Source: Lingula anatina
Lineage: Eukaryota > Animalia > Brachiopoda
DNA length: 64,000 nt
Reading direction: 5' to 3'
NCBI GenBank assembly: GCA_051362555.1
Contig: CM120640.1
Location: 71,154,788 to 71,218,787 of the forward strand
A model generated the notes under the pieces. It searched no databases, was not told the origin of the DNA, and worked only from the letters and a program-made list of their open reading frames with translations. The translations under genes were made by a program, and so were the position numbers. This document shows positions 43,401-49,400 of this stretch, piece after piece. Every line of letters begins with the position of its first letter. Position 1 is the stretch's first letter.

Positions 43401-46400
43401 AGAAAGCTATGAAGCGGTTAAGTTGTGAGAAAATAAACTTAATCATGCACGTGTGCACGCGCACACCCACACAAACACATACACATACACACACACAAAC
43501 AGAGAGAGAGAAAGAGAGAGAGAGAGAATGTGTGTGAGGACAGCCAGCTACAGTCAGCTGGTATCTGATATCCCTGCATTTCTTTTCAGCATTACTGTGC
43601 AGCCAAAACCCTCTTCATCTCGGACTCTGACAAGAGGAAGCACTTCATGCTGACAGTCAAGATGTTCTATGGCAATGGACAGGATGTCGGAGTATTCCAC
43701 AGCAAAAGAATCAAAGTCATTTCTAAACCTTCAAAAAAGAAGCAATCATTAAAGAATGCAGATTGTAAGTGTGCACTGTGCATGTCTCAAAGAGAAACAA
43801 ATTGCCCTCTTTGTTAGCAGTAGACTGAGGTGTAATTTTAGCTCTTAGATAACCTCAGAATTTTTTACTTCAGCATTTATTTTTAACCTTTGAACTTTAA
43901 TGAGAGGCATTTTCAAATTTCAGCATTGTATTTTCCCCCCAGGTTGAATATATGTGAAATGAAAGAAACACTTTTTTTTATCTGATTCATTATGAACATA
44001 CTGCTTCTCTGAGTGTAAATTTTAAAACAGTTACCTAATAAAAAGATGTTCATATCTTGCAGTGTGCATTGCATCAGGGACAAAGGTAGCGTTGTTCAAC
44101 AGGCTACGTTCTCAGACCGTCAGCACACGCTATCTGCATGTAGAGAACGGGAACTTTCACGCCAGCTCTACACAGTGGGGAGCATTTACCATTCACTTGT
44201 GTAAGTAACTGATGTGACAACTTGTTAGATTCATCTCTATGGCAACAAGAAGTTAGTGTTTCCATGTTATCCAATGCAAGTTACCAGTATTCCAAGTTGA
44301 TGATTGGCAAGGCGTCGGCACGTAAAGTATTTTTTTATTCTAAATGGGGCCTTACTACAGGATGCAGAAAGGACATCGTCCCATGTAATGGGGGCTTAAG
44401 GACCAAAAATACTGTGTAGAAAGCTGATTTGATAATGACATACTTAGGGAATGTTTAAGTGATTTAAGTAATTTTTAGAGCAAATCCTGCTTTGACTTTT
44501 CCACTTATTTCCAGTTTCGTCAGCTATGATTTTTTTACCTGTATTATAATCAACTAGATAATAAGGGTATTACGTTATTATCTGTATTTGATGACAAACC
44601 TGAGCATTGTGTGTTGGATAACAGGTTACCACAAAAATTATTATAAATGCACAAAAAAGTCAAACATTATTTCAATAAGGGTACATTAGTATTGTTGACC
44701 TGTCATAGATATGACATGAAAATCAACACGTAGGAAGGGAAAGGGGTTTGCCTCTCTGCTTTACTGAAAATATTACTGTTTAAGACTGTCTACTGTGAAA
44801 TCAACGGTTACATTTCTTAGGATTATAGGTTCAACTGAGTACATTGGGGAAGGGGGGTCTGGCCTGTCAAAAATTGTTTAAGTTTTTCTTCAGTCTTGAA
44901 CTTAAGTGTTGATAAGCAGACCAGGTAGGGTGATATGTCTATTCATACAGGGAGAATAAGTGGCATAATGGAACCTTCTCCACACTCTGTCCTTTTTTCA
45001 TCGCTTGATTAAATGGTCTCATCAAAATGCAGAAAAAATCTCAGCTATGTAAAATATCTACATAGAGCATTTATTGCCTTTCATTTTAATTTGCCATAAC
45101 TAATTCTGGGTTTATTTGTTTCCAGTGGATGACAATGAGAGTGAGTCTGAAGAGTTTACAGTACGTGATGGTTACATTCACTATGGTGCCACTGTTAAGT
45201 TAGTGTGTTCAGTGACTGGGATGGCCCTACCCCGGCTGGTGAGTGAAGACTTTTTATTATTCATCATAAACTATTCTAAGCTAACAGACAATGTTATATG
45301 TTCAGTGACTGGGATGGCCCTACCCCGGCTGGTGAGTGAAGACTTCTTATTATTCATCATAAACTATTCTAAGCTAACAGACAATGTTATATGTTCAGTG
45401 ACTGGGATGGCCCTACCCCGGCTGGTGAGTGAAGACTTCTTATTATTCATCATAAACTATTCTAAGCTAACAGACAATGTTATATGTTCAGTGACTGGGA
45501 TGGCCCTACCCCGGCTGGTGAGTGAAGACTTTTTATTATTCATCATAAACTATTCTAAGCTAACAGACAATGTTATATGTTCAGTGACTGGGATGGCCCT
45601 ACCCCGGCTGGTGAGTGAAGACTTCTTATTATTCATCATAAACTATTCTAAGCTAACAGACAATGTTATATGTTCAGTGACTGGGATGGCCCTACCCCGG
45701 CTGGTGAGTGAAGACTTCTTATTATTCATCATAAACTATTCTAAGCTAACAGACAATGTTATATGTTCAGTGACTGGGATGGCCCTACGCCGGCTGGTGA
45801 GTGAAGACTTCTTATTATTCATCATAAACTATTCTAAGCTAACAGACAATGTTATATGTTCAGTGACTGGGATGGCCCTACCCCGGCTGGTGAGTGGAGA
45901 CTTTTTATTATTCATCATAAACTATTCTAAGCTAACAGACAATGTTGTGTGTTTAGTGACTGGGATGGCCCTACCCCGGCTGGTGAGTGAAGACTTTTTA
46001 TTATTCATCATAAACTATTCTAAGCTAACAGACAATGTTGTGTGTTTAGTGATGAACTGGTCTCTTGAGTGGTTTACCTTGTTATTCAATTTTAAAACTT
46101 AAAGTTTGATTTTTATGCGTGACATAGTAAAAATCCAGGCACTTTCCAACAATGGAGGTGGCAGGTGTTACACTTTAAACAAGTCGGTTGTCTCCAGTTG
46201 TGTTTTTAAAACCTTTTACATCATACATGCAAGGAAAAATTGATGCAAAAGCTCTTATTATGCTTGCTTTTTCAACCTCAAATCTTTTATTTTCATAATT
46301 GATATTGTTATGTTTAATCTTTCAGGTTATTCGCAAGGTTGACAAGCAGACAGCGTTGCTGGATGCAGATGACCCAGTGTCCCAGCTCCACAAATGTGCA

Positions 46401-49400
46401 TTTTATATGAAGGATACAGAAAGAATGTACCTATGTTTATCTCAGGAAAGAATTATACAGTTTCAGGTGAGATGTACCCAAATGAGGGACACTTTCTACA
46501 TATATTATGCTAAATTTACTAAAAAGTGAACAGTTATGTAGAGGGAGAAAACAGTCCAGTGATTATGTAATGGTGTTTAACAAACAGACTCGGTTGCTCA
46601 ATATTTCACTGAAGATTTAAGATTAAAGAATAAAAATCTTCAGTGTTTTCATGACTGTGCCCCAAAATGAATGTTTAAACATTCTAAAGCACTTGTTGAA
46701 AGTCTGTGTTCCTAAGGTTAAGTATCTTATAGCGCTTGTTGGTTGTTCAAAGTTTTGATGAAGATACATGAGCTGCATAGTCAGTATTACATTTCACCAA
46801 CGCCATCTTCTCTCTCTGCCAGGCCACGCCTTGTCCTAAAGAGCCCAACAAAGAGATGATCAATGACGGGGCGTCCTGGACCATCATCAGCACGGACAAG
46901 GCAGAGTATACCTTCTATGAGGGTATGGGTCCAGTCAAAGCTCCTGTCACACCAGTGCCTTTAGTACATAATTTATATGTAAGTACTCTGCCAGACATAG
47001 GGCCTTCCACTTTGTAGTTGATGAACTACTGCAGGAAACTAAGACAGCTGTAGTAAATGTGGCTTTTTATAGGTATTTTATAGCAAACTTAAGTTTTGTA
47101 TTATGTGACTTGCAGTGCTTGCAATATGTATTTTTATGACCCACCATGAAATCACAGTTTAAGTCATAAATTTAGTTTCTGCAACCATAAATCTACAGCT
47201 TGCAGTCACAAATGGCAATTTCTGTTGTAAGACCTCTAATCTGTCTATCATAGGAAAATTGGACTTCTGAATCAAAGAAAAATGAACGCTTGTCTTTTAA
47301 AACTATTTTAAGTGATTAGATTTCTTATTATAAAAGGCTCTGATTTTACATATTAGATGTACTTTTTGTCATTTTTTAACTAATTGGAAATCTTGATAAT
47401 TATATTTAATTAAATTAAATTCCAGCTAAATGGAGGTGGCGATGTGGCTATGTTAGAGTTGAGTGGGGAGAACTTTACACCTCATCTGAAAGTATGGTTT
47501 GGAGATGTGGAGGCAGAAACTATGTACAGGTAAAACATCTGCTTCTGATTATGTCAGATTATACAGGTAACACACTTCTGTTGTGCATTGTGTTATATTG
47601 TACAGGTAACACACTTCTGTTGTGCATTGTGTTATATTGTACAGGTAACACACTTCTCTTGTGCATTGTGTTATATTGTACAGGTAACACACCCACTTAT
47701 TATAGTGTTATATTGTACAGGTAACACACTTCTGTTGTGCATTGTGTTATATTGTACAGGTAACTCACCCACTTATTATAGTGTTATATTGTACATGTAA
47801 CACACTTCTGTTGTGCATTGTGTTATATTGTACAGGTAACACACCCACTTATGATTGTGTTATATTGTACAGGTAACACACCCACTTATTATAGTGTTAT
47901 ATTGTACAGGTAACACACCCACTTATGATTGTGTTATATTGTACAGGTAACACACTTCTGTTGTGCATTGTGTTATATTGAACAGGTAACACTTATTTCT
48001 GATTGTGTAACACTTGTGAAATATTGGTAAAATTAATGTGAAATATGATTAAGGTCACAAATGCAGACATCATTTTAGTATTCTAGTAGGATGTTTGTTT
48101 TGTCTTTGTGTTTTGTGTGTGTATTTCAAAGCAGCAGTGATAAAGTTCAGATATATTATTTCTTAACATGACTCTGTGATGCTGTATTTCATTTGTATTC
48201 CTTCTAGATTAGAAGAAATGCTGTGTACAGTCCCTGATATTGTAGTTTATTTGTATTCCTTCTAGATGTGAAGAAGGAATGCTTTGTGGTCCCAGATATT
48301 GTGTATTATATGTATTCCTTCTAGATGTAAAGAAGGAATGCTTTGTGGTCCCAGATATTGTATATTATTTGTATTCCTTCTAGATGTGAAGAAGGAATGC
48401 TTTGTGTGGTCCCAGATATTGTATATTATTTGTATTCCTTCTAGATGTGAAGAAGGAATGCTTTGTGTGGTCCCAGATATTGTATATTATTTGTATTCCT
48501 TCTAGATGTGAAGAAGGAATGCTTTGTGTGGTCCCAGATATTGTATATTATTTGTATTCCTTCTAGATGTGAAGAAGGAATGCTTTGTGTGGTCCCAGAT
48601 ATTGTGTATTATTTGTATTCCTTCTAGATGTAAAGAAGGAATGCTTTGTGGTCCCAGATATTGTATATTATATGTATTCCTTCTAGATGTGAAGAAGGAA
48701 TGCTTTGTGTGGTCCCAGATATTGTATATTATTTGTATTCCTTCTAGATGTGAAGAAGGAATGCTTTGTGTGGTCCCAGATATTGTATATTATTTGTATT
48801 CCTTCTAGATGTGAAGAAGGAATGCTTTGTGTGGTCCCAGATATCTCAGCATTCAGGTCAGGATGGAAGTATGTCAGGCAACCCCTGCAGGTAATTTAGT
48901 AGACTAGTCTCTTCAATTCTTTTGCAGTTAACTATAGATATTGTTAAAGCAGTTGTTTTTATAACATGTTTAAAATATGAAAAAAATCATTGATGTGCTA
49001 AAGGATAGCAAAGCAAGTAAATTAAGGCAGACATTGAAGCTAAAAATAATTATTTCAGGAAAATTCAGCAATTTTCCCTACACCAAGATGTCTGCCTTCC
49101 AGAATCCTTCACAGAAGTACCAACAGCAAATAGACGTTCATTTGTTACTTCTCAATAGTAAATTCAGTATTGATTCTTGCAACCACTATGTCTGTAGTTA
49201 GGTCATATCCTGTGTAACCATTGTTTTAGTCCTAAGAAATATTCTCATTAAAGGTGACTTTCACCGTCTTTGTTTTAGGTCCCAGTGTCGTTGGTACGTG
49301 AGGATGGTGTAATCTATGCAACAGGACTGACTTTTACCTACACGCCAGAGCCCGGCCCGCGGCCGCATTGTGCCGCCATTGATGAGACCATGCGGCCAGG

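What the first reader, a model, noticed from the sequence alone, without database searches (positions are those of the whole stretch)
45203..48890. Three exon-intron junctions of one CSL gene are each amplified into a splice-site array
Seen: within 3.7 kb, three unrelated tandem repeats (93, 37/39 and 59/61 bp) each have a real splice junction of this gene inside their unit: two donors and one acceptor. In every case the productive site is the copy next to the exon body, the extra copies run into the intron, and the most diverged copies tend to be distal. One intron (47530-48808) has 13 donor-like sites at its 5' end and 11 acceptor-like sites at its 3' end. Inference: three junction-anchored arrays in one gene suggest either a mutational process that targets exon-intron boundaries or tolerated/selected decoy arrays in which copy number tunes productive versus unproductive splicing of a dosage-sensitive Notch effector. 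I know of no named system for this, but cannot search the literature.
Basis: partly seen in the sequence, partly recalled or inferred. Interest (0 to 1): 0.85.

Follow-up and report, generated by a model that had tools for sequence, protein, structure and literature searches.

The report
Brachiopod "mirage" repeats at splice sites
In the lamp shell Lingula, three exon edges of the Notch-pathway gene CSL are copied head-to-tail 9 to 13 times into their introns, a repeat type already named "mirage" in lancelets, and since the RNA reads that could be assigned use the original splice donors the extra copies are likely harmless by-products of DNA duplication.

Summary
The three arrays are real and sit on true junctions of the 14-exon Lingula anatina CSL/Su(H) gene: 9 donors (93 bp), 13 donors (37/39 bp), 11 acceptors (59/61 bp). 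The class is named: amphioxus "mirage" minisatellites, with human F7, CBS and 6-16 cases. This scan has reported it before on other genomes. RNA shows the exon-proximal donor in use (21 listed reads for array 1, 16 for array 2, no listed later donor); the acceptor copy was not resolved. Of 143 donor-acceptor pairs across the doubly arrayed intron, only the real one keeps the frame open. Two local features stand out: array 1 is stop-free and in frame, so a later donor would add 31 residues per copy to the beta-trefoil domain and escape decay; array 3's unit is an 11-bp hairpin over the acceptor. The arrays are absent at the same junctions in other animals' CSL (0/15, 0/12, 0/17), while another animal has one at a different junction. 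Enrichment at junctions depends on the null chosen (P=0.004 per array, none per base; post hoc). Decoy tuning is unsupported. Verdict: new member of a known kind, likely near-neutral.

The parts
19405..49485 (+). CSL / Suppressor of Hairless gene of Lingula anatina, 14 coding exons, 664 aa
   Evidence: Open frame with AG/GT at all 26 junctions; Pfam LAG1-DNAbind, BTD, TIG_SUH on the exons; identity to XP_013403310.1
45126..45238 (+). Exon 9 (beta-trefoil domain, Pfam BTD positions 21-57); its donor is the first unit of array 1
   Evidence: Joint 44200^45126 in 18 RNA reads; 21 listed reads leave at this donor for exon 10
45206..46052 (+). Array 1: 93-bp donor mirage, about 33 nt exon + 60 nt intron, 9 identical donors; unit is 31 codons without a stop in the CSL frame
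46326..46466 (+). Exon 10 (BTD positions 58-104)
   Evidence: RNA joints and loose ends
46823..46978 (+). Exon 11; no array here in Lingula, but a 107-bp donor array at this junction in another animal's CSL (L014)
47426..47529 (+). Exon 12 (TIG_SUH domain); its donor is the first site of array 2
   Evidence: 36 reads join 46978^47426; 16 listed reads leave at 47529
47523..47992 (+). Array 2: 37/39-bp donor mirage, about 7 nt exon in the unit, 13 sites; any later donor meets a stop at once
   Evidence: RNA depth 0 at 47568-47600 in 3 of 3 runs, DNA depth 12.8 times unique
48183..48844 (+). Array 3: 59/61-bp acceptor mirage, 11 acceptors; unit holds a predicted 11-bp hairpin pairing the pyrimidine tract with the exon start; every upstream acceptor gives a premature stop
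   Evidence: also read through by RefSeq model P0001
48809..48890 (+). Exon 13; its acceptor is the last unit of array 3
   Evidence: Only acceptor that restores the conserved frame; RNA matches this unit type
49279..49485 (+). Last coding exon with stop
   Evidence: 100% to P0001 residues 476-543

Best explanation
These are three independent 'mirage' minisatellites, tandem copies of a short stretch that straddles an exon-intron junction, which likely arose by ordinary local duplication and likely persist as near-neutral passengers because splicing keeps using the copy next to the exon. Shown: the anatomy, the use of the first donor in arrays 1 and 2, the frame consequences, and the lack of conservation. 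Inferred: (1) a slippage or unequal-exchange event duplicates 40-90 bp across a junction (in array 3 an 11-bp hairpin may have seeded it); (2) concerted turnover expands and homogenises the middle copies and leaves the edges diverged; (3) the spliceosome takes the first donor after the exon (oriented scanning as shown for human F7) and the acceptor nearest the exon, so extra copies end up intronic; (4) stray use in arrays 2 and 3 makes premature stops that nonsense-mediated decay would remove; (5) duplications that pushed copies into the mRNA would have been purged, which by itself explains why surviving arrays always run into the intron.
For: Matches the published definition and turnover pattern of mirages, both donor and acceptor side, edges excluded from homogenisation. 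First donor used: 10+11 listed reads for array 1, 8+8 for array 2 with zero RNA depth beyond the second site. 1 of 143 donor x acceptor pairs is open. No array at the same junctions in other animals: 0 of 15, 0 of 12, 0 of 17 loci; a separate 107-bp array at the exon-11 donor in 1 of 47 loci. The gene is repeat-rich anyway: about 17% of its span lies in local repeats and 3 of its 6 larger arrays are on no annotated junction. A 2015 DNA run has summed depth 21 on the array-1 unit against 7.6-23 on flanks, which hints at far fewer than nine copies. F7, LMNB2 and PDGF use only the first donor.
Against: Per-array null gives 3 of 6 on junctions against 0.39 expected, P=0.004, so pure chance placement may be too weak. 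Eight RNA reads (2+2+4) cover the intron part of the array-1 unit unspliced; they fit intron-containing RNA at about 3% per unit if there are nine units (plain introns 1.6% in the same runs) but 9% if there are three, and cannot be told from use of a later donor. Three loose-end rows were hidden and rows need 3 reads per run. Depth is low (upper bound about 17% for array 2) and decay would hide stop-bearing forms. The acceptor copy used is unresolved among 7 of 11. Human 6-16 and CBS do use the second and third sites.
Confidence: 0.75

Rival explanations
1. A mutational bias creates duplications preferentially at exon-intron junctions (for example breaks or slippage tied to splicing, R-loops, chromatin edges or junction hairpins); the arrays are still functionless. 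This is compatible with the best explanation and differs only in step 1.
For: Per-array null P=0.004, and 0.006 within the exon-dense part. Array 3's junction is the strongest hairpin of 56 junction windows (RNA z -5.5, DNA z -8.1). An independent array at another CSL junction in another animal. Mirages recur in several amphioxus genes.
Against: The gene was picked because it shows the pattern. Per-base null shows no excess (3 vs 4.4). 0 of 30 junctions in the MINDY-1 and receptor genes next door (those 30 were set by homology, not RNA). Arrays 1 and 2 have no unusual hairpin at the junction (z +0.8, -1.6). No genome was available for a genome-wide test.
Confidence: 0.4
2. Array 1 is a used in-frame ladder: later donors add 31 residues per copy inside the beta-trefoil domain, giving CSL isoforms with altered Notch or co-repressor binding whose share depends on copy number.
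For: All 8 later donors are identical to the real one and give stop-free products; chance of in-frame and stop-free is about 0.05 for one such unit. The junction lies at BTD position 57/58. Eight unspliced reads over the unit. Possible copy-number difference between DNA runs.
Against: These products would escape decay, yet 21 listed reads use donor 1 and no row for a later donor is shown. In F7, in-frame pseudo-sites are also ignored. No array at this junction in 15 other loci. With three arrays, one in frame by chance is not rare (about 0.15).
Confidence: 0.07
3. Selected decoy arrays tune CSL dose through unproductive splicing and decay.
For: All alternative sites in arrays 2 and 3 give premature stops; splice signals are intact in 12 of 13 and 11 of 11 copies. 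Tandem repeats do shift splicing at many human loci (PMC10078293, abstract and passages).
Against: Intact signals are expected from recent homogenisation. Zero RNA depth past the second donor of array 2. Array-2 decoys are predicted to be buried in pairing (unpaired probability at most 0.02 against 0.17 for the real donor). No conservation. Amphioxus mirages gave no aberrant mRNA.
Confidence: 0.06
4. The arrays, or their lengths, are assembly artefacts.
For: Array 1 is 98% homogeneous; run X2 shows much lower depth on its unit than nine copies predict, and its unit-to-unit contig has 33 and 28 letters on the two sides, just short of the tool's 31-letter rule.
Against: Units carry distinct, ordered variants. 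X1 depth ratio 12.8 fits 12-13 copies of array 2 and its contig breaks at both arrays. Another assembly's gene model reads through array 3. RNA reads carry the internal-unit variant at 45253.
Confidence: 0.04

Closest known systems
Amphioxus 'mirage' minisatellites (Adh3, globins BflGb6 and BflGb9, troponin C, PGBD5). Seen: PMC3087553 section 16 in full, PMC3902484 passages; the naming paper (Canestro 2002) was not held and is known here only through these citations
   Same: Unit spans an exon-intron boundary; donor and acceptor sides both occur; several arrays in one gene (Adh3, PGBD5); unit size within 10-160 bp; edges more diverged than the middle; normal splicing kept
   Different: Brachiopod, not cephalochordate; one intron arrayed at both ends; one array fully in frame; somatic instability not tested here
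Human F7 intron-7 37-bp VNTR (PMC1557585: abstract, introduction, discussion read); LMNB2 100-bp and PDGF 81-bp cases as cited there
   Same: First unit holds the real donor, followed by identical pseudo-sites that stay silent; F7's unit has 4 nt of exon, like array 2's about 7 nt
   Different: Donor side only; scanning was shown by mutagenesis in mammalian cells and is only inferred for Lingula
Human 6-16 (IFI6) and CBS intron-13 minisatellites (as described in the introduction of PMC1557585)
   Same: Junction-spanning donor arrays of 15-25 copies
   Different: There the second and third donors are used; no such use was listed here

Membership tests
Mirage minisatellite | Tandem repeat whose unit spans an exon-intron boundary of the host gene | tested here: met
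   All three units hold exon and intron sequence of RNA-supported junctions
Mirage minisatellite | Splice signals reiterated in many, not necessarily all, copies | tested here: met
   9 of 9, 12 of 13 (AG|GT) and 11 of 11
Mirage minisatellite | Regular splicing not disturbed | tested here: inconclusive
   First donor used in all 21 and 16 listed junction reads, none listed elsewhere; low depth, hidden rows, 8 unspliced reads, acceptor copy unresolved
Mirage minisatellite | Concerted evolution inside the array, edge copies excluded | tested here: met
   Lowest identity in edge copies: distal two in array 1, first and last in array 2, distal in array 3
Mirage minisatellite | Length varies between haplotypes | tested here: inconclusive
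   Run X2 depth on the array-1 unit is 1-3 times flank depth, not 9; contig depth is no copy number
Mirage minisatellite | Somatic instability (reported for Adh3) | not testable with these tools
   Needs small-pool PCR or long reads from several tissues of one animal
Regulated unproductive-splicing (poison/decoy) switch | Alternative, decay-sensitive isoform is made | tested here: inconclusive
   None seen in steady-state polyA RNA; no decay-blocked data
Regulated unproductive-splicing (poison/decoy) switch | Element conserved at the orthologous junction | tested here: not met
   0 of 15, 0 of 12, 0 of 17 loci of other animals; distant taxa, short-read contigs, no other brachiopod identified

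The most novel reading that the evidence does not exclude
Array 1 is a copy-number-variable, in-frame ladder of eight extra donors that inserts 31 residues per step into the beta-trefoil domain of the sole Notch effector and is used in some tissues, and Lingula junctions are hot spots of duplication seeded by junction hairpins such as the one in array 3: a heritable repeat dial on Notch signalling made by a junction-directed mutational process.
Probability: 0.07. Interest if true: 0.75.

Novelty: new member of a known kind. Interest (0 to 1): 0.3.

Why it matters
As it stands: it extends mirages to brachiopods (no mention found; open-access library only), gives a compact natural test bed for splice-site choice (nine identical in-frame donors that decay cannot hide; an intron with 13 x 11 options), and shows a practical cost, since the RefSeq CSL model lacks exons 9-12 and reads through array 3. 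How mirages start is stated as unclear in the literature; a genome-wide count in Lingula could settle whether junctions are mutational targets. If the in-frame ladder were used, repeat length would directly alter a dosage-sensitive developmental regulator.

Tried and rejected
No whole genome is held, so no genome-wide enrichment test. Exact search for the array-1 junction in metagenome contigs: 0 matches. No RNA holder was listed by the index; raw 2026 RNA runs of the same species label were laid instead. Reads were laid only on stretches flanking the arrays (46060-47600; 43560-45345), so copies are collapsed and the array-3 acceptor copy is unresolved. A general 'junction hairpin' origin was tested and holds for array 3 only. 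Folding the whole intron 12 gave unit-to-unit pairing with no shuffle control and was not used as evidence. The naming paper for mirages was not held under three ids. Literature searches for a genome-wide study or a Lingula report found none; subscription papers are not covered, and no supplements were read. Look-ups of earlier scan notes by place and by sequence were empty. Recursive splicing was considered and set aside: no unit has an acceptor directly followed by a donor on the sense strand of these three arrays (array 3 AG is followed by AT). No structure was predicted for the 31-residue insertion.
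Full report
Observation. Tandem Repeats Finder gives three arrays inside the finding: 45206-46052 (93 bp x9.1, 98% matches), 47523-47992 (39 bp x12.4, 84%) and 48183-48844 (61 bp x11.0, 94%). The host is the CSL/Su(H) gene of the brachiopod Lingula anatina: exon 2 is 100% identical to XP_013403310.1, and a 14-exon model with AG/GT at all 26 junctions reads as one 664-aa frame with LAG1, BTD and TIG_SUH domains in order. 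Array 1 repeats about 33 nt of exon 9 plus 60 nt of intron and holds nine identical donors. Array 2 repeats about 7 nt of exon 12 plus intron and holds 13 donor-like sites, 12 with AG|GT. Array 3 repeats about 25 nt of intron plus 35 nt of exon 13 and holds 11 acceptors. Divergence is highest at array edges: the two distal units of array 1 (0.96), the distal unit of array 3 (0.78), and both the first, real unit (0.72) and the last (0.68) of array 2.

Real or artefact. In DNA run X1 the contig breaks at arrays 1 and 2 and summed depth on the array-2 unit is 1242 against 97 on unique sequence, a ratio of 12.8 for 12-13 assembled copies; X1 is near-identical to the window and may be its source, and contig depth is no true copy number. 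The RefSeq protein, from an assembly with a 516-kb scaffold, lacks exons 9-12 and reads 50 residues straight through array 3, so that assembly holds several units too. In run X2 the graph also breaks at the start of the array-1 unit, but summed depth there is about 21 against 7.6-23 on flanks, which suggests one to three copies, not nine; its unit-to-unit contig falls just short of the tool's bridging rule. This hints at length variation and does not prove it.

What each extra site would do. Array 1's unit is 31 codons without a stop in the CSL frame, so each of the 8 later donors gives an open product with 31 more residues per step at BTD position 57/58; a shuffle test puts the chance of in-frame and stop-free at about 0.05 per unit, about 0.15 for one of three arrays. 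In arrays 2 and 3 every alternative meets a stop; 1 of 143 donor-acceptor pairs, the real one, is open.

RNA. Five RNA runs were laid (X12 twice), about 6% of four runs and 25% of one, on two stretches flanking the arrays. On 46060-47600 (96 reads, 3 runs) the joints 46466^46823 and 46978^47426 are GT..AG; 16 listed reads leave exon 12 at 47529, and RNA depth at 47568-47600 is zero in all three runs, so no later array-2 donor was seen (95% upper bound about 17%). Their next 30 letters fit the 61-bp unit type carried by 7 of 11 acceptors, so the acceptor copy is not resolved. On 43560-45345 (229 reads, 3 runs) 10 and 11 reads leave at donor 1 for exon 10; no row is shown for the second donor, onto which all later donors collapse, but rows need 3 reads per run and 3 rows were hidden, among them probably the X14 row. 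Eight reads cover the intron part of the unit unspliced. Spread over nine units that is about 3% of exon depth, near the 1.6% of plain introns in the same runs and the 5% of intron 10 in X12; over three units it would be 9%. They cannot be told apart from use of a later donor. Steady-state RNA would also hide stop-bearing forms of arrays 2 and 3.

More than chance? Of 56 junctions in the window's three genes, only these 3 have local copies; 0 of 30 in the MINDY-1 and receptor genes (set by homology, not RNA). Per base there is no excess: 17% of the CSL span lies in local repeats, 4.4 junctions expected, 3 seen. Per array there is: 3 of 6 larger arrays in CSL cover a junction against 0.39 expected, P=0.004. 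The gene was chosen for showing the pattern, so neither number is a genome-wide test, and no genome was available.

Other animals. A scan with exon 11 confirmed 104 CSL loci in metagenome contigs and kept the best 80; 57 have two or more exon blocks. Where the same intron exists, no array was found: 0 of 15 at the exon-9 donor, 0 of 12 at the exon-12 donor, 0 of 17 at the exon-13 acceptor. One of 47 loci with the exon-11 donor, L014, carries its own 107-bp donor array, a junction that is plain in Lingula. These are unnamed, partly redundant short-read contigs, which undercount arrays. The pattern fits independent origin at arbitrary junctions.

Structure. The array-3 unit holds an 11-bp stem that pairs the pyrimidine tract with the exon start, AG in the loop; it is the strongest of 56 junction windows (RNA z -5.5, DNA z -8.1), and it is present in the real acceptor too. 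It may have seeded slippage; arrays 1 and 2 show nothing like it. In array 2 the real donor is predicted to be the most open (0.17 against at most 0.02), which could help it win (prediction only).

Comparison with what is known. [quoted passage not shown] PGBD5 and troponin C carry them too (PMC3902484 passages). In human F7 a 37-bp VNTR repeats the donor; mutagenesis shows the pseudo-sites are functional but only the most upstream is chosen, even when later ones are in frame; 6-16 and CBS use the next two sites, LMNB2 and PDGF only the first (PMC1557585 abstract, introduction, discussion). I recalled the term mirage before any look-up; the naming paper was not held. Earlier notes of this scan report the same arrangement in abalone, annelids, a sea urchin and a cartilaginous fish (unchecked AI notes, used as leads only). 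I found no report for Lingula (listing; 0 hits for 'tandem', 'minisatellite', 'splic' in PMC13121700); subscription papers and supplements were not covered.

Mechanism and verdict. Most likely (0.75): local duplication across a junction, concerted expansion, splicing at the exon-proximal copy, decay of stray stop-bearing products, and purging of any array that entered the mRNA; the last step alone explains the orientation. A junction-directed mutational bias may add to this (0.4, not exclusive). Use of the in-frame ladder (0.07) and a selected decoy dial (0.06) are not excluded but have no positive support. Novelty: new member of a known kind. Interest 0.3: a dense, clean example with one unusually testable array.

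Noticed in passing
window 36021-36380: 43-bp array in CSL intron 2 with 8 copies of a pyrimidine tract plus CAG|GTAAG on the minus strand and 9 CAG|GTAT on the plus strand; no exon could be assigned. Possibly a fourth mirage of an antisense or non-coding exon.
   Followed up: partly
window 37497-37646: Stop-free, tyrosine-rich stretch ending at a donor-like site inside CSL intron 2; candidate alternative exon, no Pfam hit.
   Followed up: partly
P0001 / window 45126-47529: The RefSeq CSL model lacks exons 9-12 (most of the BTD) and includes array-3 read-through; a mis-annotation tied to these arrays.
   Followed up: yes
window 14340-16974 (minus strand): MINDY-1 gene: residues 1-443 of P0002 map here, but residues 444-605 were not found in the 14 kb downstream within the window; long intron or rearrangement.
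   Followed up: partly
L014 1852-2565 and L045 1342-1419: Another animal's CSL has a 107-bp donor mirage at the exon-11 donor (L014); L045 has a two-copy duplication at the same donor.
   Followed up: partly
window 54540-61485 (minus strand): Gene with several ANF_receptor (Venus flytrap) domains in tandem, glutamate-receptor-like; RefSeq P0011 covers only part of it. A 17-bp x3.5 repeat at 60944-61002 lies 25 nt upstream of an acceptor without spanning it.
   Followed up: partly
window 46326-47529, run X18: Run X18 differs from the window at 11 listed exon positions, nearly all reads, so it comes from a clearly diverged population or cryptic species under the same label.
   Followed up: no
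window 44342-44400: Short dispersed repeat in intron 8 that draws reads from other transcripts and contigs on both strands.
   Followed up: no
window 20823-22561 and 31402-32799: Two large intronic arrays in CSL (146 bp x11.9; 28 bp x48.8) that touch no annotated junction.
   Followed up: partly
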